A DNA stretch of 64,000 nt from an uncultured Thermodesulfobacteriota bacterium (GTDB lineage: Bacteria > Desulfobacterota > B13-G15), in assembly GCA_964543765.1 (NCBI GenBank), contig CAZIZI010000001.1, forward strand, positions 170,475 to 234,474, given 5' to 3'. Each line of letters begins with the position of its first letter. The stretch's first letter is position 1. Shown here piece after piece: positions 19,993 through 46,387 of the stretch. The notes beneath the pieces were generated by a model. It did not search any database, was not told the origin of the DNA, and was given only the letters and a program-made list of their open reading frames with translations. The position numbers and the translations under genes are program-made.

Positions 19993-21384
19993 TTGATAAA
20001 TGATCCCATCATGATATGGAGAACGTTGGGGATAGTTCTCCCACTGATTTTCTTTTTTTCTTGTTCTTTATACGATAGAAAGACAAGCCAAGTGACAAAA
20101 CCTCCCGAAGAAGTGGCGAATGTTTTTCTAAAAGAAGCGGAAACTGCTTCTGACAAAAATATCTATGCAAATGAATTTGTAGCAGAAGGAATAAAGGAAG
20201 AAGCTCCTATGGAAATGGAGGGAGCAAACTTTGATATTCCCATTGTGATAAACGATCGGGTTCAATATTTTATCAAGTTTTTCCAAACTGTTGTGAGGGA
20301 TAGGTTTGCTCAATGGCTTAAGCGATCTGGGCGTTATATCCCCATAATGAGGGATGTTTTAAGAGAACACGGTCTTCCAGAGGACTTGGTGTATTTAGCG
20401 ATGATAGAAAGTGGTTTTAACCCCACTGCCCGGTCATACCGACAGGCGGTTGGACCATGGCAATTTATAGAGGGCACAGCCCTTAAGTACGGCTTGAGGG
20501 TGGATTGGTGGGTAGATGAGAGGAGGGATCCGATTAAGTCAACAATTGCGGCAGCAAGGTATCTTAAAGACCTTTATGATCAGTTCCGATGTTGGTACTT
20601 AGCCGCCGCTTCTTACAACGCAGGTGAAGGGGCGGTAAGTAGGGCAATGAGGAGATATCAAGTTGAAGATTATTGGCAACTTATAGAATATCCCGGTTTA
20701 AAGCAGGAGACCAAAGAATACGTGCCTAAAATGATCGCCGCGGCGCTAATCGCCAAAAATCCTGAGAAGTATGGCTTTAAGGATATAGAATACGATCCTC
20801 CTTTGGAATGGGATGAGGTGGTCCTTCCTCCGGGGACAAGCCTTGAAGCGGTAGCCATGTGTGCTAACACAAGCCTTGAAGAGGTAAAGAATCTCAATCC
20901 CCATTTGCTTAGACAGTCTACCCCTCCGGATACCTCCTATCCTGTTAGGATTCCGAAAGGTAGGGAAGCCATCTTTTGGGAATGTTTTTTGGCTCTTCCG
21001 CTTCCTAAGAAACAGCTCATGTTCGTGAAAGTGAAAAGTAATCATTTGAGGAAATATAAAGTTCAAAAAGGTGACACTCTCTTCAAAATCTCTAAACGAT
21101 TTGGGGTGAGCCTACAAGAATTGAAGGTAGTAAACCACATAAAAGATTCTTCTAACCTTAAGATCGGACAAGAGCTTCTTATACCCGAAAAAGAGCGAAA
21201 TGGGGTCAAAACCGTATCGAAAGGTCGAACTAACAAAAAAGTGGTTCACGTGGTAAGGGAGGGCGAGACTCTTTGGCGCATTGCTAAAAGTTATGGGGTT
21301 TCGGTTGAAGACTTAAAAAGGTGGAATAAACTGGAAGGTAAGACCATCCGTCCCCACGAGAGACTTCTGATTTATACAGATTAA
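19993..21384 (+). CDS. mltD: membrane-bound lytic murein transglycosylase D-like (SLT domain + 2 LysM)
   Basis: SLT motif YLAMIESGFNPTARSYRQAVGPWQF; two C-terminal LysM repeats (YKVQKGDTLFKISKRFGVSLQELKVVN; HVVREGETLWRIAKSYGVSVEDLKRWN); lipoprotein-like signal. Confidence 0.85.
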   Translation: MINDPIMIWRTLGIVLPLIFFFSCSLYDRKTSQVTKPPEEVANVFLKEAETASDKNIYANEFVAEGIKEEAPMEMEGANFDIPIVINDRVQYFIKFFQTVVRDRFAQWLKRSGRYIPIMRDVLREHGLPEDLVYLAMIESGFNPTARSYRQAVGPWQFIEGTALKYGLRVDWWVDERRDPIKSTIAAARYLKDLYDQFRCWYLAAASYNAGEGAVSRAMRRYQVEDYWQLIEYPGLKQETKEYVPKMIAAALIAKNPEKYGFKDIEYDPPLEWDEVVLPPGTSLEAVAMCANTSLEEVKNLNPHLLRQSTPPDTSYPVRIPKGREAIFWECFLALPLPKKQLMFVKVKSNHLRKYKVQKGDTLFKISKRFGVSLQELKVVNHIKDSSNLKIGQELLIPEKERNGVKTVSKGRTNKKVVHVVREGETLWRIAKSYGVSVEDLKRWNKLEGKTIRPHERLLIYTD

Positions 21385-23138
21385 AGGTCAAGTTTGATAT
21401 GTAACTCCTTAAGCTGGGTTAGGTCCACAAAAGAGGGGGCTCCGGTAAGAGGACATACGCCCTTTTGAGTTTTAGGGAATGCTATTACCTCGCGTATAGT
21501 CTCTTTTCCGCAAATTATCATGACCAAGCGGTCGAAACCTAAGGCTATTCCTCCGTGGGGAGGGGCTCCATATTGAAGGGCTTCGAGTAAAAATCCAAAC
21601 CTTCTCTGAGCTTCATCAGGAGGAAGCCCTATTACTTGAAAGATCTTCTTTTGAATCTCAAAGCGGTGATTCCTTATACTTCCTCCCCCTATTTCATGGC
21701 CGTTAAGAACTATATCGTAGGCCCTAGCCTTCACCTTAAGCGGATCAGTTTCCAGGAAGCTAATGTGCTCTTCCTTAGGAGAGGTGAAAGGATGGTGAAC
21801 TGCCACATAACGGCTTTCGGTTTCATCCCATTCGAACATGGGAAAGTCAACGATCCACACGAATTTGTATTTTCCTTCCCTTATAAGTCCTAAGGACCTT
21901 CCTAATCGAAGCCGAAGTTCCCCCATGATTTGGGAGGCCTTTTCCTTTTGATCGGCCAAAAATAGGAGAAGATCACCGGGTTTAAGACCGGTTCTTTCCC
22001 TCAATTTTTCCTTTAAGCCCTCTGGAAGGTATTTTACGGGGGGACCCTGCCAGCCGGTCTCACCGAGTTTTATCCACCCAAGTCCCTTTGCCCCAAGGTT
22101 TATGGCTTGTGAGGTAAGATCGTCCAGCTCCTTCCGAGAGAATTGCGCTCCTCCTTCGATCACAAGCCCTTTTACCTTTCCTCCTTTTTCGAGTTCTCTC
22201 TTTAAAACTTCCAAGGAGGATTCTTGGAAAAGGTCGCTCAGGTCCTTGAGCTCCATTCCAAATCGAAGATCTGGCTTGTCAGTGCCAAATCTCTCTATGG
22301 TTTCATCATAAGGGATTCGGGGAAAAGGAGTCTCCAGTTGGATACCTAAGAGTTCTTTAAAAAGCTTCACAAGGAGCCCTTCTATTAGTTCTTGAACATC
22401 CTCTTCTTGGACAAAGGACATCTCTATATCCACTTGGGTGAACTCCGGTTGCCTATCGGCTCTCAAATCCTCGTCTCTGAAACACCTGGCTATCTGGAAA
22501 TAGCGGTCAATGCCGCTTATCATGAGGATTTGTTTAAAAAGCTGGGGTGATTGGGGAAGGGCATAAAAATTTCCCGGATTCAGCCTTGAGGGAACCAAAA
22601 AATCCCTTGCCCCCTCGGGGGTAGATTTGGTTAAAAAAGGTGTTTCCACCTCAATGAAATTTCTGGAAGAGAGATAGTTTCTTATCAATTGAGCAGCTTT
22701 ATGTCTCAACAAAAGGTTTCGGAACATGGAGGGTCGGCGGAGGTCAAGATAACGATATTTTAACCTCACCGCTTCCCCAATCTCCACTTTATCTTCGATG
22801 GGGAAAACGGGAGGCTTTGAGGTATTGAGTATTTCTAAATAAGTTCCAATGACCTCTATTTGGCCCGTTTTAATTTTTGGATTTTCCGTACCTGGAGGCC
22901 TTTTTTGGACGGATCCCTTTACCACGATGACGTATTCGTCGCTTAACTGTTGAGCGAGCTGGTGAGCTTCTCTAGATACTTCGGGGTTAAAAACCACCTG
23001 AACGATGCCTTCTCTATCCCTCAGGTCAATAAATGTTACTCCTCCGTGGTCCCTTATACTCTGGACCCATCCCATAAGGATTACTTCCCGTCCCACATCT
23101 TTGAGGTCGAGTTCTCCACAGTAACAAGTCCTTTTCAT
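21381..23138 (-). CDS. aspS: aspartate--tRNA ligase
   Basis: Class II aaRS; FIDLRDREGIVQVV anticodon-binding OB region, QSPQLFKQILM, GGGSIRNH, GAPPHGGIALGFDRL motifs. Confidence 0.95.
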   Translation of the reverse strand: MKRTCYCGELDLKDVGREVILMGWVQSIRDHGGVTFIDLRDREGIVQVVFNPEVSREAHQLAQQLSDEYVIVVKGSVQKRPPGTENPKIKTGQIEVIGTYLEILNTSKPPVFPIEDKVEIGEAVRLKYRYLDLRRPSMFRNLLLRHKAAQLIRNYLSSRNFIEVETPFLTKSTPEGARDFLVPSRLNPGNFYALPQSPQLFKQILMISGIDRYFQIARCFRDEDLRADRQPEFTQVDIEMSFVQEEDVQELIEGLLVKLFKELLGIQLETPFPRIPYDETIERFGTDKPDLRFGMELKDLSDLFQESSLEVLKRELEKGGKVKGLVIEGGAQFSRKELDDLTSQAINLGAKGLGWIKLGETGWQGPPVKYLPEGLKEKLRERTGLKPGDLLLFLADQKEKASQIMGELRLRLGRSLGLIREGKYKFVWIVDFPMFEWDETESRYVAVHHPFTSPKEEHISFLETDPLKVKARAYDIVLNGHEIGGGSIRNHRFEIQKKIFQVIGLPPDEAQRRFGFLLEALQYGAPPHGGIALGFDRLVMIICGKETIREVIAFPKTQKGVCPLTGAPSFVDLTQLKELHIKLDL

Positions 23139-26293: not shown

Positions 26294-26373
26294 CGTTCCT
26301 CCAAATTAGGTATTGTCAATGGGCAAAGTAGTACTTATTAATAATACTTTGAATGCCTTAAAGGAGGAAAGGG

Positions 26374-28203
26374 ATGGTTGAACTTCGAGGCAGGAAAAAA
26401 AGTGGTTTTTTGACTCACGTGGTAAAGAAGCAGAGGTTTCAACTTGAGGACGTGGATAAACCCGAGTTGTTTAAAGACATATTTCCCTATGAAGAGATCT
26501 GTAGAACCGTATTCGATCATCGGGTTGAGCTTATTGATCCTCCCGACGAGATTTTCATCACGGATACCACCTTTAGAGATGGTCAACAATCAAGGCCTCC
26601 TTACACGGTAGAACAGATGGTAGACCTTTACAAGTTCCTATACCGCCTTGGAGGAGCAGCTGGAGTGATCCGTCAGACCGAGTTTTTCATCTATACCAAA
26701 AGGGACCGGGAGGCGGTAGAGAGATGTCTTGAGCTTGGTTACAAGTATCCGGAGATAACGGGATGGATAAGGGCTAACAAGGAAGACCTGAAGCTGGTAA
26801 AGGAAATGGGCTTAAAGGAGACGGGGATTCTCACTTCCGTTTCGGATTATCACATCTTTCTTAAGCTTGGCAAAAACCGCCGTACGGCTTTGATTGATTA
26901 CTTAAGGGTTGTAGAGGCGGCTCTTGAACATGGAATAAGGCCAAGATGCCATTTTGAGGATGTCACTAGGGCTGATATTTACGGATTTGTGATCCCCTTT
27001 GCTCAAGAGTTAATGAGGCTTTCTGAGGAGAGCGGTATTCCAATAAAGATTCGCCTTTGTGATACCTTAGGCGTAGGGGTTCCTTATCCTGGGACGGTTC
27101 TACCTCGAAGTGTTCCTAAACTGGTCAGGGCCATGGTGGATGAAGCAGGGGTTCCTTCTGAACAGCTTGAGTGGCATGGTCATAACGATTTTTATAAAGC
27201 TTTGATCAATGGAGTTACCGCTTGGCTTTACGGCTGTTCGGCCGTAAACGGAACCCTTTTGGGTATTGGTGAGAGGACGGGCAATACCCCTATTGAGGCC
27301 TTGATAATAGAATACATAAGCCTCACCGGTAACCATCACGGCATTGATACCACCGTAATTACCGATATAAAGAATTATTATGAATACGTAATAGGAGAAA
27401 GAATCCCTAAAAACCAGCCCTTTGTAGGTGCCGAGTTTAACCTTACAAGTGCGGGTATCCATATAGACGGTCTCATAAAGAATGAGGAGATTTATAATAG
27501 CTTTGACACCGAAAAGATCCTTAAGAGGCCTATTGCTATAGCCATTAACGATAAATCGGGAACCGCTGGTATTGCTTATTGGATAAACTCTTACTTCGCT
27601 TTGCCGCCCGAAAAGCGGGTCGATAAACGACATCCCGGAGTTGTAAAGGTTTATAAATGGGTTAAAGAGCAATATGAAAAGGGACGTACCACCAACATTT
27701 CATCTGAAGAATTGGAACGAAAGGTCAGAAAGTATCTGCCTGAGCTTTTCGTTTCCGATTTCGATCGGATAAAACGAAGAGCTTACGAAATGGCTGCCCA
27801 TTTGGCGGAAAAACTTGTGGAGCATCCCGAGATACGCTCAATGGATCCGAAGCGTCAAGAACTCTTGTTGGCCAAAGTGCTTGAGGAGTATCCATTTATA
27901 CAATTCCTTTACGTGGTGAATTTAGAGGGCAAAAAGGTCACTCGCAATATTTGCCATCCGGAAGATAGGGCCAAATACGAAGTGATAGGGCTTGATGAGG
28001 ACTTCTCAAATAGGGATTGGTTCATCGAACCCCTTAAGTCAGGAAAGGTTTATATCTCAAACTTCTATACCTCCAGAATAACCGGTGCCCTATGTATAAC
28101 GGTTTCGGCTCCTATAAGGAACGAGGAGGAGGAGATCGTGGGTATTTTAGGGATGGATTTGAGGTTTGAAGAACTCGTCAAGGTGGAAGAAGAGGAAGTA
28201 TGA
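26374..28203 (+). CDS. DRE-TIM metallolyase (HMGL/LeuA-like, isopropylmalate/citramalate/Re-citrate-synthase family) fused to a C-terminal Cache-like sensory domain
   Basis: FITDTTFRDGQQS; CDTLG; HGHNDFYKALINGV; GIGERTGNTPIEALI (LeuA/HMGL catalytic motifs); C-terminal KVYISNFYTSRITGALCITVSAPIRNEEEEIVGILGMDLRFEEL resembles a Cache/PAS-like ligand-binding module. Confidence 0.6.
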   Translation: MVELRGRKKSGFLTHVVKKQRFQLEDVDKPELFKDIFPYEEICRTVFDHRVELIDPPDEIFITDTTFRDGQQSRPPYTVEQMVDLYKFLYRLGGAAGVIRQTEFFIYTKRDREAVERCLELGYKYPEITGWIRANKEDLKLVKEMGLKETGILTSVSDYHIFLKLGKNRRTALIDYLRVVEAALEHGIRPRCHFEDVTRADIYGFVIPFAQELMRLSEESGIPIKIRLCDTLGVGVPYPGTVLPRSVPKLVRAMVDEAGVPSEQLEWHGHNDFYKALINGVTAWLYGCSAVNGTLLGIGERTGNTPIEALIIEYISLTGNHHGIDTTVITDIKNYYEYVIGERIPKNQPFVGAEFNLTSAGIHIDGLIKNEEIYNSFDTEKILKRPIAIAINDKSGTAGIAYWINSYFALPPEKRVDKRHPGVVKVYKWVKEQYEKGRTTNISSEELERKVRKYLPELFVSDFDRIKRRAYEMAAHLAEKLVEHPEIRSMDPKRQELLLAKVLEEYPFIQFLYVVNLEGKKVTRNICHPEDRAKYEVIGLDEDFSNRDWFIEPLKSGKVYISNFYTSRITGALCITVSAPIRNEEEEIVGILGMDLRFEELVKVEEEEV

Positions 28204-31987: not shown

Positions 31988-34036
31988 TTAAGCTTTCCTC
32001 AGGTTACACCTTAGCGCTTTATAATGAGGATACCCAGTTACTGGATCCTTCGGATCAAGACCTGTAAGTAAATTTACGTTAGCTTCTTCCCATCCATGAG
32101 AGATAAGGACCACATTTGGTGATACTTCCGGTACATATTTGGCCTTAATCTTGAGTTCTCCCTTCGGAGTCTCCACAATTACCATCTCTCCGTCATTTAT
32201 CCCATAAGATTTGGCCGTTTCGGGATTTATCTCCGCTACCGGTTCAGGAAAGCCTTTTCTTAAACTTGGGATGGTGCGGAATTGAGTATGAGTGTAATAA
32301 ATGCTTCTCATTCCGGTACTTAGCCACAATGGATATTTCTTCTCCTCCTCTTGAGTTGAGAAGAGGACCTTCGGAGGATCCACCGGTTCAGGAAGTGGAG
32401 AGTAGCCATGCTCAGCCAAAGTATCCGAATAGATCTCGATCTTTCCGGAAGGGGTTCTTACTTTCCCCTTTATCACCATGTCGTAAGTCTTTTGAGCGTA
32501 GAAAAATCCATGAGGATATTCGTCAAGTTTCGAGTAACTCAACCCCATGGGTTCGAGGAAGAAATCAATGATTTCTTCGTCTGTCTTCCATGGAAAGAGC
32601 TCACCATATCCCAATTTCTTTCCTAATTCACTCCAAAACTTCCAATCAGGCCAAGCCTCTCCTACTGGCTCTATAACCTTTCTCCTCAACATGATATAGG
32701 GTATTCCAGATGTAACCGCATAAACATACCCGAGTCCAGGCCTTTCCAGGAACGAACAAGCGGGAAGCACTATGTGAGCCTTTTTGGCTGTGGCGGTCAT
32801 GAACATGTCCATTACCACTAAAAGGTCAAGCTTCTCAAAAGCCTTTTCCCAGGTTTTCGATTCGGGCATGCTCAAAGCAGGGTTACCAGCTACTACAATA
32901 AATGCCTTAACCGGATAAGGCTTCTCTTCAAGGATAGCCTTAGGTAAATAGAGGGTCTGTCCATAAGGAGAAGACCTGCCCCAAAAGCTATAGAAAATCG
33001 GATGTTCTTCCGCTCCAAGGGGTTTTTCCTCTACAGGAAGTCTAAGGTCACCCAAGCGCGGGAACATAACCGAAGCCCAACTGCCTTTAATATCCACATT
33101 ACCCGTAATGGTTTGAAGGATAGCAAAAGCCCTCATAGTCTGAAGGCCATCAACCCTCTGGTCAAAACATGTCCCGGGTATTATGCAAGCGGGCTTATTT
33201 GTGGCAAAGGTCCTCGCGAGTTCCCTGATCTCGGAAGCGGAAAGCCCCGTAACTTCACTGACTTTCTCAGGTGTATATTTTTGAACATGCTCCTTAAACT
33301 GATCAAATCCCTTGGTATACTTCTCTACGAAGTCCTTATCATAAAGGCCTTCACTTATGATCACATTGGCTATACTCAACGCCAAAAAACAATCACTTCC
33401 GGGACGCACCGGGTAATGTTGACCAAGCTCAGCCAAAGGAATCCTCTTTGGATTTATCACGATGATGTTTTTGCCTCCCCCTTGAGCCCTTAAATAATTG
33501 GCCAAATGGGGTCTGGAGTTGTCAGGGTTTGTGGCCCAAAGGACAATGCACTTGGCGTCTTCGGGTTCTTCAAGCAAAAAGGTTCCAAAGGTAAGCTGAT
33601 GGGCTATGATCCTTGAACGATAACACACGCTTTCAACCGAGAGAAGGTTTGGTGTTCCATAAGCGCCTTTAAAACGCTGAGCAAATGCCGCTATTTCTAA
33701 GTTCTCAACCCCTATAGAACCACAAAAGAGAGCAAGAGAATGCGCACCGTACTTATCCTTTATCTCCGCCAGTTTGGAAGAGATGAAATCAAGCGCCTCG
33801 TCCCAACTTATCCTTTTCCACGAGCCATTTTCCCTCTTCATCGGATAAAGAATCCGGTCAGGAGCATAAACCCATTCGGGTAAAGCCTCTCCCCTCGGAC
33901 ATAAATAACCCCTGCTTAAGGGATGCTCAGGTAATCCCTCAACTTTAACAAGCTTCCCCCCTTCCACATGGGCCACCATACCACAAGACCATACACACCC
34001 TATACACACACTCGGTATCTTCTTTACTTCCGCCAT
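31988..34036 (-). CDS. cytoplasmic molybdopterin (bis-MGD) oxidoreductase, formate-dehydrogenase/DMSO-reductase superfamily
   Basis: N-terminal 4Fe-4S motif CIGCVWSCGMV...CPRG; ~680 aa with the MGD-binding domain architecture; no Tat signal; start ATG 34036 after GGAGGTG RBS. Confidence 0.75.
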   Translation of the reverse strand: MAEVKKIPSVCIGCVWSCGMVAHVEGGKLVKVEGLPEHPLSRGYLCPRGEALPEWVYAPDRILYPMKRENGSWKRISWDEALDFISSKLAEIKDKYGAHSLALFCGSIGVENLEIAAFAQRFKGAYGTPNLLSVESVCYRSRIIAHQLTFGTFLLEEPEDAKCIVLWATNPDNSRPHLANYLRAQGGGKNIIVINPKRIPLAELGQHYPVRPGSDCFLALSIANVIISEGLYDKDFVEKYTKGFDQFKEHVQKYTPEKVSEVTGLSASEIRELARTFATNKPACIIPGTCFDQRVDGLQTMRAFAILQTITGNVDIKGSWASVMFPRLGDLRLPVEEKPLGAEEHPIFYSFWGRSSPYGQTLYLPKAILEEKPYPVKAFIVVAGNPALSMPESKTWEKAFEKLDLLVVMDMFMTATAKKAHIVLPACSFLERPGLGYVYAVTSGIPYIMLRRKVIEPVGEAWPDWKFWSELGKKLGYGELFPWKTDEEIIDFFLEPMGLSYSKLDEYPHGFFYAQKTYDMVIKGKVRTPSGKIEIYSDTLAEHGYSPLPEPVDPPKVLFSTQEEEKKYPLWLSTGMRSIYYTHTQFRTIPSLRKGFPEPVAEINPETAKSYGINDGEMVIVETPKGELKIKAKYVPEVSPNVVLISHGWEEANVNLLTGLDPKDPVTGYPHYKALRCNLRKA

Positions 34037-34158
34037 TAATTCACCTCCTTCAAAATTGCTTCTACAAAATAACATACTATTTCAAGTTTTGCAAGATATA
34101 CCGCTGTTCTCCATAAGATAACTTTTTACGACTGCTTTTTGGGTTATAATGTTTACTT

Positions 34159-35019
34159 ATGAGGAGGGTAGAGGTTATAGGGCTTTTGAGTCTGGGGATT
34201 GGTTTGGTTTTGGCAGTTTTGGCCTTTTTGGAGAAATTGAGGGTAGAGGAAGTGGGTTTTGATGTTTGTAGAAGTGAATCTTGTGAGGTTGTTCAGTATT
34301 CCGGGTTTTCGGACCTTTTTGGTTTTCCCATAACGCTATTTGCGATCTTAGCCTTAGGTGGGGTTATCCTTCTTTGGTTTTTGCGGAGAAAAGAAAAGGC
34401 TCTTTTTATTCTGGCCTTTTTGGTTGGGTGTGAAGCTTATTTGACCTTTATTGAGTTTTATTATTTAGAAGGGAAGTGCCCTCTGTGTATAGCTTTTTTA
34501 AGCAGTTTAGTGATAGGGTTTGTTTTTTCGGTTCTTCAAAGGTTTAGACCATCCCTTTTTTGGTTTATGGCCTTAGGGTTTTTGGGATTGCATTTTCTCT
34601 TCTTCTTTCCGAGATTTGATCTCGCTTATACCCCCTATTTTGACCCCAAGGGAAAGGTTATTGAAGTTTTTCTTTCGCCAAGAGAGTCTCGGATCCTCAA
34701 AGAACTTCAAGGCTTTTTAAGCCAGAGAGGTTTTCAATTGTGTCCGAGGTTTGTCCCTCAAGATCCTTCGTCAAGAAGGGAGGCCCTTTTAGAGATGGCC
34801 AAAATGCTGTTTTCTGAACCGAGTGAAGAAGCTTTGAGGGTCTCAGAAAGGACGTTAAGGAGGAATGAAGAGGAGCTTAAAAATTTTAACGGTTCCCTTC
34901 CCCTGTTGGTAGTGAAGGAAAAGGGAGAAGTGAAAAAGGTGATAAGTGGTCCCAATTGGAGAGAGGAACTTGAGGAATACTTCTCTTTGCCCCCTTTGTT
35001 TTTCTTCAGTTCGCCTTAA
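34159..35019 (+). CDS. VKOR (vitamin K epoxide reductase) family membrane protein with C-terminal soluble extension
   Basis: Loop Cys pair CRSESC and membrane-embedded CxxC (GKCPLCIAF) within 4-5 TM helices as in VKOR homologues. Confidence 0.6.
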   Translation: MRRVEVIGLLSLGIGLVLAVLAFLEKLRVEEVGFDVCRSESCEVVQYSGFSDLFGFPITLFAILALGGVILLWFLRRKEKALFILAFLVGCEAYLTFIEFYYLEGKCPLCIAFLSSLVIGFVFSVLQRFRPSLFWFMALGFLGLHFLFFFPRFDLAYTPYFDPKGKVIEVFLSPRESRILKELQGFLSQRGFQLCPRFVPQDPSSRREALLEMAKMLFSEPSEEALRVSERTLRRNEEELKNFNGSLPLLVVKEKGEVKKVISGPNWREELEEYFSLPPLFFFSSP

Positions 35020-37345
35020 GGGATAGCAAAGCCCTTTTGAGTATCACCCTTGTTATTTCGATCTTATAAGCGTTTTTGTTAAGAGGAAGGGTTTCTTTTA
35101 CGGCCATTTTGGCTGCTTCTTCTATTACTAGGTCTTCTAGCTTTTTGTCCTCAAGCCAACTTTCAACTTCCCTTACCCTTAGAGGTACCGGAGCTACCCC
35201 TCCAAGAGCGATGCTAATTTTTTTGACCACTTTTTCGTTTATTTCTGCGACAATTCCTACACTTACGATCGGAAAATCGATAGAATTTCTGAGCCTGAAC
35301 TTCATGAATACTTGAGGGAGATTTGCCATTTCCTTGGGTATTAAAATCTCCGTTAAGATCTCATCGGAAGCCAAATTGCCTCGGACGGAAGTAAAAAATT
35401 CCTCTACTGGAATTACCCTTGTCCCATTGGAAGTGATTATTTTCAATTTTGCCCCTAAGGCCATTAGCGCCACCGCCATATCTGAAGGATTTACCGCCAC
35501 ACAGCCGCAGTTGAAACATCGGTCTGCTTCCTTTTGAATTTCTTCGAACTCAAAGGGCTTTTTTTCTTTGAAACTAGTGAGCCTTTCGATCTTTTTGAAA
35601 GCCTTAATATTAACTTTGTGAAGGGTCTTTTTGGAAGAGGAAGGGCTTTCTTGGGCAAATTCTCCCAGAAGGAACCGATTTATTGAAACTACTGCCTTTT
35701 TCGCAGAAGCTATTGATTCAACTACCGTTGAGGGACCACTTACGAAATCTCCTCCTGCGAATAGGTTTTTCCCCAAAAAGTAAGAGGAATCAATCTTTAA
35801 ATTCCCCTTTTCATCAATGAAGTCCGAGGGCAAAAAGGAAAGATCCGCTCTTTCCCCCACTGCCTTTATCACCGCATCGTACTCTTCCTCGAATTCCGAT
35901 CCGTAAATGGGAAGGGGTGTAGGTCTACCTGATTCATCCTTAGGCCCAAGGCGCATTCTAACGGAGCGAAGGATCAATTTTTCTCCTTTTTTCTCAAGAC
36001 CTATAGGCTGAGTCAAAAATTCAAATTCTACGCCTTCCTCTTTGGCTAATTCCCTTTCTTCCTTCAAAGCCGGCATTTCGTTCTCCGTTCGACGGTAGAG
36101 GATTTTGGGTTTTGCCTTAAGTCTTAAAAGACTTCTTGCTACATCTATAGCCACGTTCCCACCGCCTATTACCGCTACCTTCTTCCACTTAAACTCTTTT
36201 TGATCCAAATTAATGCTTCTCAAAAAATTCAAACCGCTTAATGCCAACTCTTCACCTGGAATGCCCATTTCCCTTTCCTTCCAAGCCCCTATGGCCAAAA
36301 GCACAGCATCATATTGAGCACATAGATCCTCTAAAGTCATGTCCTTGCCCAAATGGACGTTGAATTTAAACCCGATTCCCAAAGCCTTCTTAAAGGCTTC
36401 AACCACTTTGTTTACGATCCTCTTATTGAGCCTAAATGGAGGTATCCCATATCTTAAAAGTCCACCTGCTTCGCTTTCCCTTTCAAAAATTACTACATCG
36501 TGTCCGCTTTTTCTCAAGTAATAAGCGGCGGTAAGTCCCGCCGGCCCGGATCCAACTATTGCCACTTTTTTCCCCGTTTTCTTATCGGGTAAAGAGAGAA
36601 GCTTGGGCAGGTTCTCAAGAATATAATCTCCCAAAAACCTTTCCACTTCCCTTATCGCCACAGGTTCATCGAATTCTTTTCTGGAGCATCTATCCTCACA
36701 AAAACGAGGGCAAATGCGGCCGGTTATAGAAGAAAGGGGATTAATCTCAAGAAGCATCCTAGCTGCTTCGTCGTTTTTCCCTTCTCTTAAGTTTTCCAAA
36801 ATGGAAGATATGTCAGTGTGAACTGGACAGGCATCCCAACAAGAGGTAGGACGATTCGTATGTTTATAGCATCCAAAAATCGAATGGTAATGGTTTTCTC
36901 CAGTTAGAGCGTAACAAGTATCCCCACCCTTTAGATAACAAGTCAAACGACCCCCTATCTGATGGGGATACCAAAAATACCAACATCGTACCTCCTGACA
37001 CAGATTACCCCCGATTGTGCCCATATTCCTTATTTGAGGCGTTCCTACTGAAGAGGCCGCTTCTTTAAGCAGAGGATATTTTTCAAGCTTCCCAGATCTT
37101 ACGATTTCCTCCAATTTCGTTAAGGCCCCTATCTTGATCGCCTCTTCATCTTCTTCGATTAAGGATAATCCCGGTATCTCCTTAAGGTTTATCAAAGCCT
37201 TTGGGTATTCCGGATAAATGTCCTTTTTTAAGGCAGGGATTAAAACTGTGCCGCCTGCTATAAGTTTCGCCTTTCCATTATACTTTTTTAACAAACTAAT
37301 TGCTTCTTCCAATGTATGAGGGGTGAAATGCTCAAATGGCTTCAT
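35006..37345 (-). CDS. xanthine-dehydrogenase-family medium (FAD) subunit with an inserted GltD-like NAD(P)H-dependent FeS flavoprotein module
   Basis: N-terminal CoxM/XdhB FAD-binding domain (KLIAGGTVLIPAL); then GltD/NfnB-like segment (ITGRICPRFCEDRCSR; KKVAIVGSGPAGLTAAYYL; second Rossmann VAVIGGGNVAIDVAR); then CO-dehydrogenase-flavoprotein C-terminal domain; 779 aa versus ~290 aa for a plain CoxM. Confidence 0.7.
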   Translation of the reverse strand: MKPFEHFTPHTLEEAISLLKKYNGKAKLIAGGTVLIPALKKDIYPEYPKALINLKEIPGLSLIEEDEEAIKIGALTKLEEIVRSGKLEKYPLLKEAASSVGTPQIRNMGTIGGNLCQEVRCWYFWYPHQIGGRLTCYLKGGDTCYALTGENHYHSIFGCYKHTNRPTSCWDACPVHTDISSILENLREGKNDEAARMLLEINPLSSITGRICPRFCEDRCSRKEFDEPVAIREVERFLGDYILENLPKLLSLPDKKTGKKVAIVGSGPAGLTAAYYLRKSGHDVVIFERESEAGGLLRYGIPPFRLNKRIVNKVVEAFKKALGIGFKFNVHLGKDMTLEDLCAQYDAVLLAIGAWKEREMGIPGEELALSGLNFLRSINLDQKEFKWKKVAVIGGGNVAIDVARSLLRLKAKPKILYRRTENEMPALKEERELAKEEGVEFEFLTQPIGLEKKGEKLILRSVRMRLGPKDESGRPTPLPIYGSEFEEEYDAVIKAVGERADLSFLPSDFIDEKGNLKIDSSYFLGKNLFAGGDFVSGPSTVVESIASAKKAVVSINRFLLGEFAQESPSSSKKTLHKVNIKAFKKIERLTSFKEKKPFEFEEIQKEADRCFNCGCVAVNPSDMAVALMALGAKLKIITSNGTRVIPVEEFFTSVRGNLASDEILTEILIPKEMANLPQVFMKFRLRNSIDFPIVSVGIVAEINEKVVKKISIALGGVAPVPLRVREVESWLEDKKLEDLVIEEAAKMAVKETLPLNKNAYKIEITRVILKRALLSLKAN

Positions 37346-37349
37346 CCTT

Positions 37350-39635
37350 CTAAGCCTCCTTCCGTTTTCCTAAAGCCTCAAGAATTACCCACGGAGAAGC
37401 GGGATAGGCATTGATCCATTTGCCTATAGCATTTGATATCGCCATAAGAACCGCTGGTGGACCAGGAGAGGTGGCTATCTCGCCCACTCCAACGGCTCCA
37501 AAGCGATGGCTAGAGAAGGGCGTCTCCAAGATGACGTTTTTAATCTCGGGTAAGTCCAAAAAGGAACGCCATTTATAATCAATGAGATTGGTCGTTAAAA
37601 TTCGCCCTATCTTGGGATCAAGAACCGTTTCCTCGAATATGGCTGTATCTATTCCGGCGGATCCCAAACAACCGTTGAGTTGGTTTTCCAAACACAAGGG
37701 GTCTATTATCTGTCCCGCATCGGTGGCATTGACGACCCTTATAAGGTCGACCTTCCCCGTTTCGGTATCCACCTCCACTTCTACGAAACTTATCATGAAG
37801 TTGCAAAGACTATAATCGGGTTCATAATGCCCGTATCCCCATATGGTGTAAGTTGGGCCCATGGCCCTTCTCCAGGTGATTTGCCTTTTGGGGTCGTCTT
37901 TTACGTAAATTATCCCATCCGAGGTCTCAAGCCTTTCAGGAAGTACACCTAATTTTTTGGAAGCCCGTTCGAATAACTTCCTCTTTGCGTCTTCAGCGGC
38001 CTCTATAACCGCACTTCCTATGGCATAAGTACCTCGGGATCCCACCAGTCCGAATTCATAAGGGTTTGTATCGGAATCAGGTGGAGATAAGAACACGTTT
38101 TCCAAGGGTATCTGAAGGACCTCAGCTACGAATTTACAAAGGTTACTCCTCTGTCCCCCTCCTTGTTCGGGAACTGCCACATAAAGGGTGACCCTATGAT
38201 CGGGGTCTATACGGACAAAGGCTTCGGCATCATCCTCCCCAATATCAGCATTGCTGTGAACCCCGACCCCTACGCCTCTCCTTTTCGGTCCATTTACCAC
38301 GGTTGGTTTAAGCCAGCCCTTCCATTTCTCCTTCCACCCAAAGACTTCGGCTCCTTTGTCGATTGTCTTGGTGAAATCCACCACCCTGGAGATCCACCAA
38401 CGTCCGTCTCTCCAATAATAACCTTGGCCATTCTTGATGACGTTTTTCTTGAAGAACTCAACGGGATCAATGTCAAGTTTCGCCATAGCCATATATAAAA
38501 GGGGCAAAAGCACCGACTTGAGCTCCTGTCCTCCAAACCCTCTTATCCAGCTGGAATTATCCCTATTAGTGCAAATCACCTTGGGTCTCAAATCCCAATT
38601 CTCGCATCTTATGACAAGCTGTACTTCTCCTAAACCTACAGCCACTTGTCCCTGGGTTACTGCTGAATAATACCCGGTATTCACCAGCCAATTACCCGAT
38701 ATGGCCGTGACAGTCCCATCCTTTTTCATACCCACTTTTCCTTTGAGGCGCGTTCCCAAACGGATGGTAAAGCTTGTAAGGTGTTCTTCTTTCGTGTAAC
38801 ACAATTTAACGGGTTGCCCAGCGGCTTTAGCCAACACAATGGCATAAATTGCGATAGGGAGAATAGTCCCTTTTGATCCGTAACTTCCACCGCATTGGCA
38901 GGCATGAACTATCACGTTGTATTTTCTCTGCATTATGTAATAAAGGCTTATTTTGTCCATATAAAACCCTTGAGAAGAAAGCCATACGTGAACCGTCTCT
39001 GGGTCTTCCCAATAGGCTATGGCGCCTGGGGGTTCAGGAGGTAAGGGGTTAGCGATGTTTTCATAATAAAATGTCCCCTCCACCACCACATCCGCTTCTG
39101 AAAAGCCCTTTTCCACATCGCCAAGTCGGAGTTCCTTTAATCCTTCTGGAGCCTCAGGGCTTCCAAACCAGGGGTTCCCTAAGGGTAAGATGTTATTGGG
39201 AAATTCGTCGTAAAGCTGAGGAGCTCCCTCCTTTATGGCCTCTTCTGCGTCAAAAACGGCTGGAAGTATCTCATACTCCACTTCGATTAAGTCCAAAGCC
39301 TCTTGGGCGATTTCTTCCGTTTCAGCGGCTACAAGACTCACCGCATCACCCACAAAGCGTACCTTCTGGTCAAGGACGCGAAGGTGAGGCGGTAAGCCCA
39401 TCTTCCAATCTGGAACGTCCTTATAAGTTAAGACTGCTTTAACACCGGGTAAGCTTTTGGCCTTTTCTACCTTTATCTCCTTTATAATCGCATGGGGATA
39501 AGGGCTTCTTAAAACCTTTCCTATGAGCATATTCGGTAACTTCACATCGTTAATGTAAATGGCCTTCCCCGTGACAATAGATAGGGCGTCCTTCCTCGGG
39601 GTTGGTTGACCTATAAACCTATATTTTTTGGCCAT
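37350..39635 (-). CDS. xanthine-dehydrogenase/aldehyde-oxidase-family molybdopterin-binding large subunit
   Basis: 761 aa, a/b-hammerhead plus MoCo-binding domain architecture typical of CoxL/XdhA/HcrA; sits between the 2Fe-2S and FAD subunits. Confidence 0.8.
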   Translation of the reverse strand: MAKKYRFIGQPTPRKDALSIVTGKAIYINDVKLPNMLIGKVLRSPYPHAIIKEIKVEKAKSLPGVKAVLTYKDVPDWKMGLPPHLRVLDQKVRFVGDAVSLVAAETEEIAQEALDLIEVEYEILPAVFDAEEAIKEGAPQLYDEFPNNILPLGNPWFGSPEAPEGLKELRLGDVEKGFSEADVVVEGTFYYENIANPLPPEPPGAIAYWEDPETVHVWLSSQGFYMDKISLYYIMQRKYNVIVHACQCGGSYGSKGTILPIAIYAIVLAKAAGQPVKLCYTKEEHLTSFTIRLGTRLKGKVGMKKDGTVTAISGNWLVNTGYYSAVTQGQVAVGLGEVQLVIRCENWDLRPKVICTNRDNSSWIRGFGGQELKSVLLPLLYMAMAKLDIDPVEFFKKNVIKNGQGYYWRDGRWWISRVVDFTKTIDKGAEVFGWKEKWKGWLKPTVVNGPKRRGVGVGVHSNADIGEDDAEAFVRIDPDHRVTLYVAVPEQGGGQRSNLCKFVAEVLQIPLENVFLSPPDSDTNPYEFGLVGSRGTYAIGSAVIEAAEDAKRKLFERASKKLGVLPERLETSDGIIYVKDDPKRQITWRRAMGPTYTIWGYGHYEPDYSLCNFMISFVEVEVDTETGKVDLIRVVNATDAGQIIDPLCLENQLNGCLGSAGIDTAIFEETVLDPKIGRILTTNLIDYKWRSFLDLPEIKNVILETPFSSHRFGAVGVGEIATSPGPPAVLMAISNAIGKWINAYPASPWVILEALGKRKEA

Positions 39636-39636
39636 T

Positions 39637-40131
39637 TTAAGTTACCCTCCTTTTTATTACGTCACTTACAGCGTGGAGGACATGATAATGGCTTATACAA
39701 CGACAGAAATGTCCGGAAAGGGCTTCCTTTATCTCTTCCTCCGTTGGTGCTTCCTTTCTATCCAGAAGAGCCTTAAGGCTCATGATTATCCCTGGGGTGC
39801 AAAAACCGCATTGAAAAGCCGTATGGTTTATAAAGCTTTCCTGGAGAGGGTGAAGTTCACCTTTTTCGGGATTACCCAGCCCTTCGATGGTCGTTATGGT
39901 TTTTCCATCGCATTCAATCGTGAGGGTTAAACACGATAAAATCGGTTCTCCATCTATCAATACGGTACAAGCACCACAAGCCCCATGATCGCATCCGACC
40001 TTTGTACCTGTGAGGTTTAGGGTTTCTCTTAACGTGTAAGCCAATGTGTGATGGGGAAATACGTCCTTGTTGAGGAGAAGTTCATAGGACTTTCCATTCA
40101 CATTCAAATTGATGACCTTTCGTTCCTTCAT
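39637..40131 (-). CDS. [2Fe-2S]-binding small subunit of the xanthine-dehydrogenase-family enzyme
   Basis: GCDHGACGACTVLIDG...SC (plant-type ferredoxin cluster) and QCGFCTPG (second cluster) motifs; 164 aa. Confidence 0.9.
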   Translation of the reverse strand: MKERKVINLNVNGKSYELLLNKDVFPHHTLAYTLRETLNLTGTKVGCDHGACGACTVLIDGEPILSCLTLTIECDGKTITTIEGLGNPEKGELHPLQESFINHTAFQCGFCTPGIIMSLKALLDRKEAPTEEEIKEALSGHFCRCISHYHVLHAVSDVIKRRVT

Positions 40132-42853: not shown

Positions 42854-42926
42854 AGAAATCCAGAAGCGCATTTACCCTGAAGAGGAGGTGGTAGTAAGAT
42901 GAACCGGCCACAGACGAAGGGAAACA

Positions 42927-43907: not shown

Positions 43908-43934
43908 ATGAACTCCTCAGCTCCAATGAGAAGG

Positions 43935-44261
43935 AAAAAAACAATGGATGACATTCGGAGCTTAGCAGAGAAAATACGAACGGACCTAAAGGAACGCTAT
44001 GACTCAAAAGTTCTACAGATCATCCTTTATGGCTCGTAAGCGCGCGGTGAGGCCACTTCTGAATCCGACATGGACCTTTTAGTGGTGGTAGACGATTCTT
44101 TGGATCCATGGGAAGTCCGTCGGAATCTGGACGATTTGCTTTTGGACATACTTCTTAGGGATGGCCGTTTGGTTTCCGTTTTAGTGGTGCCAAAAAGCTT
44201 CTATGAAAGCTACCACTCGCCCTTTTTGAAGCAAGTCCACAAGGAGGGAATTCCCCTGTGA
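43935..44261 (+). pseudogene. MNT-type nucleotidyltransferase (antitoxin of HEPN/MNT pair) with in-frame TAA
   Basis: ILYGS*ARGEATSESDMDLLVVVD: the GSxARGx9SDxD NTase motif is interrupted by TAA exactly where a conserved Tyr (TAY) is expected. Confidence 0.7.
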
Positions 44262-44266
44262 AGTAA

Positions 44267-44619: not shown

Positions 44620-44642
44620 CTGGAAAGGGAGGCGGAGAACCG

Positions 44643-45703: not shown

Positions 45704-45749
45704 AAGAAGCCCAAGCCCAAACGGAAGCAGAACTTAAAAGAGCTCTCCG

Positions 45750-46385: not shown

Positions 46386-46387
46386 GT

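What the first reader, a model, noticed from the sequence alone, without database searches (positions are those of the whole stretch)
26374..28203. LeuA/HMGL-like DRE-TIM metallolyase fused to a Cache-like sensory domain
The N-terminal ~380 aa carry the catalytic motifs of the isopropylmalate/citramalate/Re-citrate-synthase family (DTTFRDGQQS; HGHND; GIGERTGN). The C-terminal ~220 aa lack the LeuA regulatory domain and instead look like an extracytoplasmic-type Cache/PAS ligand-binding fold (YISNFYTS..TGALCITVSAPI...IVGILGMDL). This enzyme-sensor fusion may be an allosterically regulated acyl-CoA:2-oxoacid condensing enzyme. One candidate is a Re-citrate synthase, which is known in anaerobes as a LeuA homologue. 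The alternative is a signalling protein built on an enzyme fold.
Basis: partly seen in the sequence, partly recalled or inferred. Interest (0 to 1): 0.55.

Follow-up and report, generated by a model that had tools for sequence, protein, structure and literature searches.

The report
Re-citrate synthase with cytoplasmic Cache domain
This gene encodes the anaerobe-type (Re-face) citrate synthase already characterised in Syntrophus, and its unusual C-terminal sensor-like domain is a normal but unstudied part of that enzyme, most likely a small-molecule regulatory switch.

Summary
ORF 26374-28203 (+) encodes a 609-aa soluble protein with an HMGL-like DRE-TIM catalytic domain (aa 61-334) and a C-terminal Cache/PDC domain (aa ~481-601, above Pfam gathering scores). 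It has no LeuA_dimer domain and no TM segment.

It is not an orphan fusion. It is 62% identical, end to end and including the Cache part, to the biochemically characterised Syntrophus aciditrophicus Re-citrate synthase SYN_02536. It is 50% identical over aa 17-458 to the Cache-less Clostridium kluyveri Re-citrate synthase. All catalytic residues are invariant in 74 orthologues. At least 75 GTDB species in several phyla carry the same architecture, and in 11-13 loci aconitase and isocitrate dehydrogenase follow the gene.

The Cache module is a single, cytoplasmic PDC domain; its best structural matches are KinD-pyruvate and Tlp3. Its pocket (R547, W549, Y565, D595) matches four of the five positions of the dCache_1 amino-acid-binding motif and is almost invariant. 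The same module and pocket end a family of mostly soluble chemoreceptors.

Verdict: a new member of a known enzyme family. The regulatory role of the Cache domain is inferred, untested, and not described in any paper I could search.

The parts
26361..26367 (+). Shine-Dalgarno (AAGGAGG) 6 nt upstream of the ATG
   Evidence: Sequence read directly.
26374..28203 (+). Re-citrate synthase gene, 609 aa plus stop
   Evidence: ORF. 62% identical to characterised SYN_02536 over aa 21-606. The exact protein is found on JGI metagenome contig Ga0212122_1000230.
26374..26544 (+). N-terminal extension (aa 1-57) containing the FPYEE...FDHR stretch shared with both characterised Re-citrate synthases
   Evidence: Aligned with SYN_02536 and CKL_0973. 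F37, P38, F47 and D48 are invariant in alignment A1. Low pLDDT in the model.
26554..27375 (+). DRE-TIM (HMGL-like) catalytic barrel, aa 61-334
   Evidence: Pfam PF00682, E 1.1e-31. Best PDB sequence match is CimA 3ble, E 2.9e-27.
26563..26589 (+). DTTFRDGQQ motif (aa 64-72): Arg68 for the 2-oxoacid, Asp69 as metal ligand
   Evidence: Position. R68 and D69 are 74/74 conserved. Aligns with the LRDGEQ motif of CimA and homocitrate synthase.
27175..27189 (+). HGHND motif (aa 268-272): His268 and His270 as metal ligands
   Evidence: Position. Both His are 74/74 conserved. Aligns with the HxH motif of CimA and homocitrate synthase.
27262..27285 (+). GIGERTGN motif (aa 297-304)
   Evidence: Position. 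E300, R301 and N304 are 74/74 conserved.
27376..27747 (+). Helical subdomains after the barrel (aa 335-458), including AGIHIDG (H363, D365). The C. kluyveri enzyme ends at the end of this region.
   Evidence: Alignment to CKL_0973 stops at aa 458. H363 and D365 are 74/74 conserved.
27748..27813 (+). Long connecting helix (aa ~456-482) that doubles as the N-terminal helix of the Cache fold
   Evidence: AF2 models: helix 456-482 in the full-length model, helix 2-28 in the domain model.
27814..28185 (+). Single cytoplasmic Cache/PDC domain (aa 481-604)
   Evidence: Pfam PF22673 and PF02743 above gathering scores. Domain model pLDDT 89.3. Foldseek to KinD, Tlp3, DctB and CitA with probability 1.0. 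No TM segment.
28012..28023 (+). Pocket motif R547-D548-W549-F550, equivalent to PctA R126-x-W128-Y129 and KinD R131
   Evidence: HMM alignments to PDB chains. Conservation: R 70/74, W 74/74, F 74/74. The MCP relatives keep it.
28066..28074 (+). Pocket residues Y565 (equivalent to PctA Y144) and S567
   Evidence: Y 61/74 plus F in 6; S 74/74.
28156..28158 (+). Pocket residue D595 (equivalent to PctA D173, the ligand amino-group contact)
   Evidence: 74/74 conserved. Role of D173 from PMC8915833.
28200..29216 (+). queA, whose start overlaps the Re-CS stop by 4 nt (ATGA). Probably co-transcribed here, but this is not a conserved partner.
   Evidence: Pfam Queuosine_synth on the JGI gene call. 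queA is not among the recurrent neighbours in 80 related loci.

Best explanation
The gene encodes a Syntrophus-type Re-citrate synthase (EC 2.3.3.3). This is a cytoplasmic DRE-TIM metalloenzyme that condenses acetyl-CoA with oxaloacetate to give citrate. In anaerobes that lack the usual Si-citrate synthase, it feeds the oxidative branch of an incomplete TCA cycle towards 2-oxoglutarate and glutamate.

The catalytic core (aa ~58-458) uses Arg68/Asp69, His268/His270, Glu195, Thr231 and His363/Asp365, as in its isopropylmalate, citramalate and homocitrate synthase relatives. Where those relatives carry the LeuA-type regulatory domain, this clade carries a single cytoplasmic Cache/PDC domain (aa ~481-604), joined to the core by one long helix.

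I infer that the Cache domain binds a small cytoplasmic metabolite in a pocket formed by R547, W549, F550, Y565, S567 and D595. I further infer that it passes occupancy through the connecting helix, or the dimer interface, to tune enzyme activity. That would be feedback control analogous to Leu on LeuA or Ile on CimA.

The pocket matches four of the five positions of the amino-acid-binding motif of dCache_1 sensors. My preferred ligand class is therefore an amino acid or a related amino-carboxylate, such as glutamate (the pathway's end product) or aspartate (the transamination partner of oxaloacetate).

Shown here: domain composition, orthology to a characterised enzyme, intact active site, conserved pocket, cytoplasmic location. 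Inferred: ligand binding, ligand identity, allosteric coupling. My sub-confidences: Re-citrate synthase ~0.9; Cache as a ligand-binding regulator ~0.6; amino-acid-type ligand ~0.35.
For: Enzyme identity:
- 62% identity over aa 21-606 to SYN_02536 and 50% over aa 17-458 to CKL_0973. Both are listed as characterised Re-citrate synthases in PMC12016533, Table S1 and text.
- In an NJ tree of the catalytic region the window lies inside the clade bracketed by these two enzymes.
- NCBIfam models for LeuA, NifV and CimA score 60-153 bits against cut-offs of 413-950. There is no LeuA_dimer.
- R68, D69, E195, D196, T231, H268, H270, H363 and D365 are 74/74 conserved.
- Aconitase-family and Iso_dh genes follow the orthologue in 11 and 13 of 80 loci, for example L001.

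Cache domain:
- Pfam hits are above the gathering scores. The domain model has pLDDT 89.3.
- Foldseek top hits are KinD-pyruvate, Tlp3-amino acid, DctB and CitA.
- HMM alignment gives R547=PctA R126=KinD R131, W549=W128, Y565=Y144, D595=D173. The roles of these residues are taken from PMC8915833.
- The pocket residues are 70-74 of 74 conserved (Y565 61 plus 6 Phe), while the domain as a whole averages 59% column identity.
- 63 non-enzyme relatives, 60 of them MCPs carrying the module after the signalling domain, keep the same pocket. In those proteins the module is also cytoplasmic.
- All Cache-bearing enzymes form one clade, which fits a single acquisition retained across phyla.
Against: - No experiment or paper available to me shows that any ligand binds this domain or that it changes activity. 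Kim et al. 2013 could not be read.
- The C. kluyveri enzyme works without the domain, and the Planctomycetota homologues also lack it, so it is dispensable for catalysis.
- The fifth motif position (PctA Y121) has no clear equivalent: position -5 from R547 is variable, and only an aromatic at -3 recurs.
- The domain is a single module, not a dCache, so it fails membership of the amino-acid sensor family as that family is defined.
- KinD, the best structural match, binds pyruvate rather than an amino acid.
- The full-length model has pTM 0.54 and low-confidence segments around the active-site loops, so no structural route from the pocket to the active site is shown.
- The window holds no aconitase, IDH or other TCA gene. 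The immediate neighbours (queA, purC, tsaC, proS) are unrelated housekeeping genes.
- The SYN_02536 and CKL_0973 sequences were taken from PDF-extracted text with some dropped letters, so the identities are slight underestimates.
Confidence: 0.65

Rival explanations
1. It is a Re-citrate synthase, but the Cache domain senses a carboxylate of central metabolism (pyruvate, oxaloacetate, citrate, 2-oxoglutarate or succinate) rather than an amino acid.
For: The best structural matches include pyruvate-bound KinD, succinate- or malonate-bound DctB and the citrate sensor CitA. KinD R131 aligns with R547. The Y121 position of the amino-acid motif is not conserved. A TCA intermediate is a natural effector of a citrate synthase (general biochemical knowledge).
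Against: D595 is invariant in 74/74 enzymes and 60/63 MCP relatives. [quoted passage not shown] KinD has Ala at this position in the HMM alignment.
Confidence: 0.25
2. It is a Re-citrate synthase, and the Cache domain is only a structural or oligomerisation module with no ligand-dependent regulation. It would take over the dimer-forming role of the LeuA C-terminal domain.
For: PAS and Cache domains commonly dimerise (general knowledge). Cache-less Re-citrate synthases exist. No ligand effect on this enzyme is reported in the searchable literature.
Against: The residues most conserved in the domain are the canonical ligand-contact positions, not surface positions. The same positions are kept in MCPs, where the module is the only candidate sensor. 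A purely structural role would not preserve that pocket across enzymes and receptors at 30-37% identity.
Confidence: 0.2
3. It is a condensing enzyme of the same clade with a different 2-oxoacid specificity (citramalate, homocitrate, 2-isopropylmalate or another), not a citrate synthase.
For: Specificity in the LeuA/CimA/HCS superfamily can shift with few substitutions (general knowledge). No Re-citrate synthase structure is in the PDB to define specificity residues; the best hit is CimA at E 2.9e-27. The window has no TCA genes.
Against: The window protein is bracketed phylogenetically by two characterised Re-citrate synthases. Its active-site residues are identical across the clade. Orthologues sit next to aconitase and IDH. 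NCBIfam LeuA, CimA and NifV scores are far below their cut-offs.
Confidence: 0.07
4. It is a signalling protein built on a dead enzyme fold.
For: The protein carries a sensor-type domain. NCBI gives the family unrelated names.
Against: Every catalytic and metal-binding residue is invariant in 74 orthologues. The 62%-identical Syntrophus protein is an active enzyme. There is no output domain such as a kinase, GGDEF, MCP or HTH.
Confidence: 0.03

Closest known systems
Syntrophus aciditrophicus Re-citrate synthase SYN_02536 (Kim et al. 2013, J Bacteriol 195:1689; sequence from PMC12016533 Table S1)
   Same: Same full-length architecture: N-terminal extension, DRE-TIM barrel, helical subdomains and C-terminal Cache. 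62% identical over aa 21-606, including the pocket sequence ...SDREWF...FYISKMTGALCFTVSEPI...VGIFGVDIR. Same clade in the tree.
   Different: The Syntrophus protein has about 20 extra C-terminal residues after the Cache domain. Gene context differs. The window organism is an uncultured metagenome lineage. Whether the Syntrophus paper discussed the extension could not be checked.
Clostridium kluyveri Re-citrate synthase CKL_0973 (Li et al. 2007, J Bacteriol 189:4299)
   Same: 50% identical over aa 17-458. It shares the FPYEE N-terminal extension and the catalytic motifs. The RDGQQ variant of the LeuA RDGEQ motif is read directly in the window and is 74/74 conserved in the clade; in the PDF-extracted CKL_0973 text this motif is garbled.
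   Different: It ends at the position equivalent to aa ~458, with no Cache domain. It branches basally, together with the Planctomycetota and Firestonebacteria copies.
LeuA / CimA / homocitrate synthase (DRE-TIM Claisen-condensing enzymes with end-product feedback)
   Same: Homologous catalytic barrel and subdomains, with PDB hits 3ble, 6ktq, 3rmj and 3ivs. Same domain logic: a catalytic core followed by a C-terminal module. In LeuA and CimA that module is the allosteric site for the end-product amino acid (established knowledge of those families).
   Different: About 29% identity or less to these enzymes. No LeuA_dimer domain. NCBIfam scores far below their cut-offs. A Cache fold occupies the regulatory position. 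The substrate is oxaloacetate.
Heliomicrobium / Dehalococcoides / Clostridioides-type Re-citrate synthases (HM1_2993, CAI83711)
   Same: Same reaction and the same superfamily.
   Different: A separate clade: 29% identity to HM1_2993, about 376 aa, with neither the N-terminal extension nor a Cache domain.
dCache_1 amino-acid sensors (PctA, Tlp3, Mlp37; AA_motif of Gumerov et al. 2022, PMC8915833) and the KinD pyruvate sensor
   Same: Same PDC fold. R547, W549, Y565 and D595 align with PctA R126, W128, Y144 and D173, and with KinD R131. There are 15 residues between the two halves of the motif, inside the reported 13-17 range.
   Different: A single module rather than a double one. Cytoplasmic rather than extracytoplasmic. 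No flanking TM helices. The Y121 position is not conserved, and Y129 is Phe. It is attached to an enzyme rather than a transducer.
Chemoreceptors with a C-terminal Cache after the MCP signalling domain, and B. subtilis YkuI (EAL plus C-terminal PAS/Cache-like YkuI_C domain)
   Same: They are the nearest sequence relatives of the module (30-37% identity) and have the same pocket. All sit at the extreme C-terminus of a cytoplasmic region. YkuI is a structural hit (2bas), and YkuI_C is a weak Pfam hit.
   Different: The partner domain is a signalling output rather than a metabolic enzyme. As far as I could find, none of these modules has a known ligand.

Membership tests
Re-citrate synthase, C. 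kluyveri/Syntrophus type (EC 2.3.3.3, KEGG K05942) | Full-length homology to a biochemically characterised member | tested here: met
   62% identity over aa 21-606 to SYN_02536 and 50% over aa 17-458 to CKL_0973. The window is bracketed by both in the tree.
Re-citrate synthase, C. kluyveri/Syntrophus type (EC 2.3.3.3, KEGG K05942) | Intact DRE-TIM active site (Arg/Asp of DTTxRDG, HxH metal ligands, catalytic Glu, Thr, and His/Asp of the AGxHxDG loop) | tested here: met
   R68, D69, E195, T231, H268, H270, H363 and D365 are present and 74/74 conserved. They align with CimA and homocitrate synthase.
Re-citrate synthase, C. kluyveri/Syntrophus type (EC 2.3.3.3, KEGG K05942) | Clade-specific N-terminal extension (FPYEE...FDHR) | tested here: met
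   Shared with both characterised enzymes in the pairwise alignments. F37, P38, F47 and D48 are invariant in A1.
Re-citrate synthase, C. kluyveri/Syntrophus type (EC 2.3.3.3, KEGG K05942) | Catalyses acetyl-CoA + oxaloacetate -> citrate with Re-face stereochemistry | not testable with these tools
   Needs an enzyme assay and stereochemical analysis.
Re-citrate synthase, C. kluyveri/Syntrophus type (EC 2.3.3.3, KEGG K05942) | Genomic setting: aconitase and IDH present, Si-citrate synthase absent | tested here: inconclusive
   None of these genes is in the 64-kb window, and the rest of the genome is not available. Orthologues are followed by aconitase-family and Iso_dh genes in 11 and 13 of 80 loci.
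2-isopropylmalate synthase (LeuA) / citramalate synthase (CimA) | C-terminal LeuA_dimer (PF08502) regulatory domain | tested here: not met
   No hit at E<=1 with the whole protein or the C-terminal 229 aa.
2-isopropylmalate synthase (LeuA) / citramalate synthase (CimA) | Score above the NCBIfam equivalog cut-offs | tested here: not met
   Best LeuA model 136 bits against 517; CimA models 89 against 950 and 60 against 450; NifV 153 against 463.
Cache superfamily (PDC fold sensors) | Profile match above the curated threshold | tested here: met
   PF22673 59.8 bits against 27; PF02743 46.1 against 45.
Cache superfamily (PDC fold sensors) | PDC fold: long N-terminal helix followed by an antiparallel sheet flanked by helices | tested here: met
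   Domain model pLDDT 89.3 with that element order. Foldseek probability 1.0 to KinD, Tlp3, DctB and CitA, with TMq 0.51-0.69.
Cache superfamily (PDC fold sensors) | Extracytoplasmic location between TM helices (the usual setting) | tested here: not met
   No hydrophobic segment (maximum KD-19 1.31). The domain is fused to an acetyl-CoA-using enzyme. The MCP relatives carry it after the cytoplasmic signalling domain.
dCache_1AA amino-acid sensors (Gumerov et al. 2022) | AA_motif positions R126, W128, Y144 and D173 | tested here: met
   R547 (70/74), W549 (74/74), Y565 (61/74, with Phe in 6) and D595 (74/74), aligned through the PDB HMM alignment to PctA. Motif definition.
dCache_1AA amino-acid sensors (Gumerov et al. 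2022) | AA_motif position Y121 | tested here: not met
   The residue five positions before R547 is variable (Glu in 34/74). Only an aromatic or Leu at -3 recurs: F/Y/L in the enzymes, Trp in 55/63 MCP relatives. Structural equivalence could not be checked without model coordinates.
dCache_1AA amino-acid sensors (Gumerov et al. 2022) | Double (membrane-distal plus membrane-proximal) Cache architecture | tested here: not met
   Only dCache_1 profile positions 36-155 of 240 are matched, and the protein ends about 8 residues later. The model shows a single module.
dCache_1AA amino-acid sensors (Gumerov et al. 2022) | Binds L-amino acids | not testable with these tools
   Needs ITC or thermal shift on the isolated domain.

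The most novel reading that the evidence does not exclude
The C-terminal module would define an unrecognised family of cytoplasmic single-Cache metabolite sensors with an amino-acid-like binding pocket. That family would have been recruited once onto the first enzyme of the anaerobic oxidative TCA branch as its allosteric feedback domain, replacing the LeuA-type regulatory domain. It would also have been recruited many times onto the C-terminus of mostly soluble chemoreceptors. If so, the same intracellular metabolite, for example glutamate or aspartate, would control both carbon entry into the TCA branch and metabolism-dependent taxis. It would also be the first case of a Cache domain directly gating a central metabolic enzyme.
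Probability: 0.35. Interest if true: 0.62.

Novelty: new member of a known kind. Interest (0 to 1): 0.4.

Why it matters
For annotation, this family is badly named in public databases. NCBI calls members 'histone-lysine N-methyltransferase' or 'triose-phosphate isomerase', JGI mostly uses a generic 'isopropylmalate/homocitrate/citramalate synthase', and no NCBIfam model reaches its cut-off. Recognising these proteins as Re-citrate synthases closes an apparent gap (no citrate synthase) in metabolic reconstructions of Thermodesulfobacteriota, Nitrospirota, Omnitrophota and others.

For biology, Cache domains are regarded as extracytoplasmic sensors. Here one with a near-invariant ligand pocket sits inside the cell on a central metabolic enzyme, in the position where related enzymes carry their feedback domain. 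That gives a concrete, cheap experiment: a ligand screen of a 150-aa domain plus two point mutants. The result could reveal how anaerobes with a branched TCA cycle control carbon entry, and what a family of soluble chemoreceptors senses. No structure of any Re-citrate synthase of this clade is in the PDB.

Tried and rejected
- LeuA regulatory domain: searched the whole protein and the C-terminal 229 aa against Pfam and NCBIfam at E<=1 and found none.
- Membrane or secreted Cache: rejected on hydropathy.
- Primary papers: Kim et al. 2013 and Li et al. 2007 are not held, by DOI or by PMC id. I used the sequences reprinted in the PMC12016533 supplement instead.
- Prior description of the Cache domain on this enzyme, or of cytoplasmic Cache domains: searches returned nothing relevant.
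- Functional partners in the window: Pfam scans of 40 ORFs found no leuA, Si-citrate synthase, aconitase or IDH.
- Operon signals: promoter and terminator scans were at or below chance.
- Organism identity: Rfam found only one tRNA and no rRNA. The exact protein maps only to an unnamed JGI metagenome contig. The best GTDB species match is 68% identical.
- AFDB fold search: not available, so no named organisms were obtained for the MCP relatives.
- AspS and HisS as recurrent upstream neighbours (37 and 27 of 80 loci): judged to be housekeeping synteny, not a functional link.
Full report
**Observation**

A GGAGG ribosome-binding site lies 6 nt upstream, and all six quoted motifs are at the stated places.

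Pfam finds three domain matches:
- HMGL-like, aa 61-334, E 1.1e-31.
- MCP-like_PDC_1, aa 499-601, 59.8 bits against a cut-off of 27.
- dCache_1, aa 481-601, 46.1 bits against 45, matching only profile positions 36-155 of 240.

No LeuA_dimer match appears even at E<=1, whether the whole protein or only the C-terminal 229 aa is searched. The protein has no hydrophobic segment (maximum 19-residue hydropathy 1.31).

**What it is**

NCBIfam models for NifV, LeuA and CimA all match, but at 60-153 bits against cut-offs of 413-950. The protein belongs to that superfamily and to none of those families.

The homologue search returned hundreds of ~605-aa proteins with the identical three-Pfam architecture, mostly from 'Deltaproteobacteria' MAGs. 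Their names are inconsistent: NCBI gives 'histone-lysine N-methyltransferase' or 'triose-phosphate isomerase', JGI mostly gives 'isopropylmalate/homocitrate/citramalate synthase', and one JGI entry says 'citrate (Re)-synthase'.

The decisive evidence came from the supplement of PMC12016533, which reprints the sequences of characterised Re-citrate synthases.
- The window protein is 62% identical over aa 21-606 to Syntrophus aciditrophicus SYN_02536, and the alignment runs through the Cache region.
- It is 50% identical over aa 17-458 to Clostridium kluyveri CKL_0973, which simply ends there.
- It is only 29% identical to the Heliomicrobium/Dehalococcoides type, a separate clade.

These reprinted sequences have a few letters lost in PDF extraction, so the identities are if anything underestimates.

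**Distribution, evolution and context**

A scan of one genome per GTDB species found at least 596 relatives. Of the best 80, 75 match to within a few residues of the C-terminus. They come from:
- Syntrophorhabdaceae, Syntrophales, Desulfovibrio, Bilophila, Mailhella, Thermodesulfatator and other Thermodesulfobacteriota;
- Nitrospirota, Omnitrophota, Armatimonadota, Lentisphaerota, Elusimicrobiota, Spirochaetota and Termititenax.

The Planctomycetota and Firestonebacteria copies are about 465 aa and lack the Cache domain.

In a neighbour-joining tree of the shared catalytic region, the Cache-less sequences (C. kluyveri, Planctomycetota, Firestonebacteria) are basal. All Cache-bearing sequences, including the window and the Syntrophus enzyme, form one clade. 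The tree has no bootstrap and is indicative only. It fits one acquisition of the domain followed by retention.

Neighbour clustering in the 80 loci shows mostly housekeeping synteny: AspS directly upstream in 37 loci and HisS in 27. In 11 and 13 loci an aconitase-family gene and an isocitrate dehydrogenase gene follow the orthologue, for example in L001. That matches the enzyme's accepted role at the head of the oxidative TCA branch to 2-oxoglutarate in anaerobes (PMC8027424; PMC12016533).

In the window itself the neighbours are proS and an epimerase (divergent), then queA (start overlapping the stop by 4 nt), purC and tsaC. Pfam scans of 40 other ORFs found no leuA, Si-citrate synthase, aconitase or IDH. 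The window gives no pathway context of its own.

**Active site**

The residues that align with the metal ligands and catalytic residues of citramalate and homocitrate synthase are R68, D69, E195, D196, T231, H268, H270, H363 and D365. All are present, and all are conserved in 74 of 74 full-length orthologues down to ~51% identity. The pseudoenzyme reading can be set aside.

**The Cache domain**

A model of aa 455-609 is confident (pLDDT 89.3, pTM 0.84). It has the PDC order of elements: a long N-terminal helix, then a sheet flanked by helices. In the full-length model the same region has pLDDT ~87-94, but the overall pTM is 0.54, so the domain arrangement is not reliable.

Foldseek against the PDB gives, in order: KinD (pyruvate-bound and R131A forms; E 4e-9 to 4e-8, TMq ~0.65), Tlp3 with amino acids, YkuI, DctB with succinate or malonate, PscC, Mlp37/Mlp24, CitA and PctB/PctC.

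A profile of the domain aligned to PDB sequences gives these correspondences:

| Window residue | PctA residue | Note |
|---|---|---|
| R547 | R126 | also aligns with KinD R131 |
| W549 | W128 | |
| F550 | Y129 | |
| Y565 | Y144 | |
| D595 | D173 | |

According to PMC8915833, the amino-acid-binding motif of dCache_1 sensors is Y121, R126 and W128 (ligand carboxyl) plus Y144 and D173 (ligand amino group), with 13-17 residues between the two halves. In that study R126A weakened binding 61-fold, and D173A and D173N abolished it.

The window protein therefore has four of the five positions, with 15 residues between W549 and Y565. The Y121 position is not matched: the residue at -5 is variable, and only an aromatic or Leu at -3 recurs.

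Conservation is telling:
- W549, F550, S567 and D595: 74/74.
- T570 and T576: 72/74.
- R547: 70/74.
- Y565: 61/74, with Phe in 6 more.
- The domain as a whole averages only 59% column identity.

**Relatives of the module**

A full HMMER search of 1.84 billion representatives with the 155-aa C-terminal region found 585 proteins at E<=1e-3. Many are fragments or full copies of the enzyme. However, 63 proteins of 300 aa or more have no similarity to the enzyme part.

Sixty of these 63 are methyl-accepting chemotaxis proteins in which the module follows the MCP signalling domain at the extreme C-terminus. Forty-four have no TM segment at all. About 15 have only N-terminal TM segments, and none has a convincing one after the signalling domain. 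In these proteins too the module is cytoplasmic.

They keep the same pocket: R 59/63, W 61/63, F 56/63, Y 62/63, S 63/63, D 60/63. The module is thus a coherent family of intracellular single-Cache domains with one conserved binding site, attached either to a receptor output or to this enzyme.

**Mechanism proposed**

Shown: the protein is a cytoplasmic member of the Syntrophus/C. kluyveri Re-citrate synthase clade. It has an intact active site and a C-terminal single Cache domain whose canonical ligand pocket is under strong constraint.

Inferred:
- The Cache domain binds a cytoplasmic metabolite and modulates activity through the long connecting helix (aa ~456-482) or the dimer interface. 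It would fill the position and role that the LeuA_dimer domain has in LeuA and CimA.
- The ligand carries a carboxylate (R547/W549) and probably an amino group (Y565/D595). That makes glutamate, the end product of the branch, or aspartate the most economical guesses.

My confidences are about 0.9 for the enzyme identity, 0.6 for a ligand-dependent regulatory role and 0.35 for an amino-acid-type ligand.

Against the inferred parts:
- Cache-less homologues work without the domain.
- KinD, the best structural match, binds pyruvate.
- The Y121 position is missing and the domain is a single module, so it fails the amino-acid sensor family as defined.
- No experiment bears on regulation.

**Comparison with what is known, and novelty**

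The protein is a new member of a known, characterised enzyme family, and the architecture is visible in precomputed Pfam annotations. The finding is not a new kind of system.

What I could not find anywhere in the searchable literature is any mention of the Cache domain on Re-citrate synthase, any effector of the enzyme, or cytoplasmic Cache domains of this type. The 2013 Syntrophus paper could not be read, so I cannot exclude that it notes the extension. No structure of this clade is in the PDB; the best sequence hit is CimA at E 2.9e-27.

**Verdict**

The gene is ordinary in identity, being an orthologue of a known enzyme. It carries an unexplored and readily testable regulatory hypothesis. 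Interest 0.40.

Noticed in passing
window 1384-8343: Three UbiD-family paralogues (1384-2838, 3107-4393, 5074-6378) cluster with a UbiX-like flavoprotein (4396-5061), a CTP-dependent riboflavin kinase/HAD fusion (6356-7342) and an FMN_dh protein (7291-8343). This looks like a prenyl-FMN-dependent (de)carboxylase cluster with its own flavin supply, as seen in anaerobic aromatic metabolism.
   Followed up: no
window 10538-12134: Two adjacent GCV_H-like (lipoyl-carrier) proteins with long N-terminal extensions (308 and 232 aa, against about 125 aa for a normal H protein). They are followed by a 4Fe-4S protein and a 371-aa ORF with no Pfam hit.
   Followed up: no
window 35006-40131 (- strand): A xanthine-dehydrogenase-family molybdoenzyme. 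Its 779-aa flavoprotein subunit has FAD_binding_5 and CO_deh_flav_C split by inserted Fer4_20 and Pyr_redox_2 domains, an unusual fusion. It sits next to a separate molybdopterin oxidoreductase at 31988-34075.
   Followed up: no
window 40225-46849: An apparently decayed type I restriction-modification system. hsdR is split into ResIII (420 aa) and EcoEI_R_C (204 aa) ORFs, and hsdM is truncated (326 aa, N6_Mtase profile 8-188 of 311). About 3 kb with only short ORFs follows.
   Followed up: partly
window 47571-49028 and 52202-53617: A fused Memo+AMMECR1 protein (471 aa), with a radical SAM enzyme about 3 kb upstream. These are the three components usually described as the AmmeMemoRadiSam system; here two are fused and EF-G lies between.
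   Followed up: no
window 21381-23138 (- strand); loci L001-L080: AspS lies directly upstream of the Re-citrate synthase on the same strand in 37 of 80 related loci, with HisS before it in 27. In the window AspS is nearby but inverted, and separated from the gene by proS and an epimerase, which suggests a local rearrangement.
   Followed up: partly
proteins P0003, P0017, P0023, P0101, P0108 and others: Public names for this enzyme family are wrong or generic: 'histone-lysine N-methyltransferase' and 'triose-phosphate isomerase' at NCBI. No NCBIfam model reaches its cut-off. Re-citrate synthase will therefore be missed in automated metabolic reconstructions.
   Followed up: partly
proteins P0148-P0270: A family of mostly soluble chemoreceptors carries a single Cache domain after the MCP signalling domain, at the extreme C-terminus. 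Its pocket is conserved (W-x-x-R-x-W-F ... Y-x-S ... D) and identical to that of the enzyme's module. I found no known ligand and no description.
   Followed up: partly
locus L077 5962-7632: One Lentisphaeria orthologue nested inside the Cache-bearing clade is only 556 aa and matches the query only to aa 509. This could be a truncation, a frameshift or secondary loss of the Cache domain.
   Followed up: no
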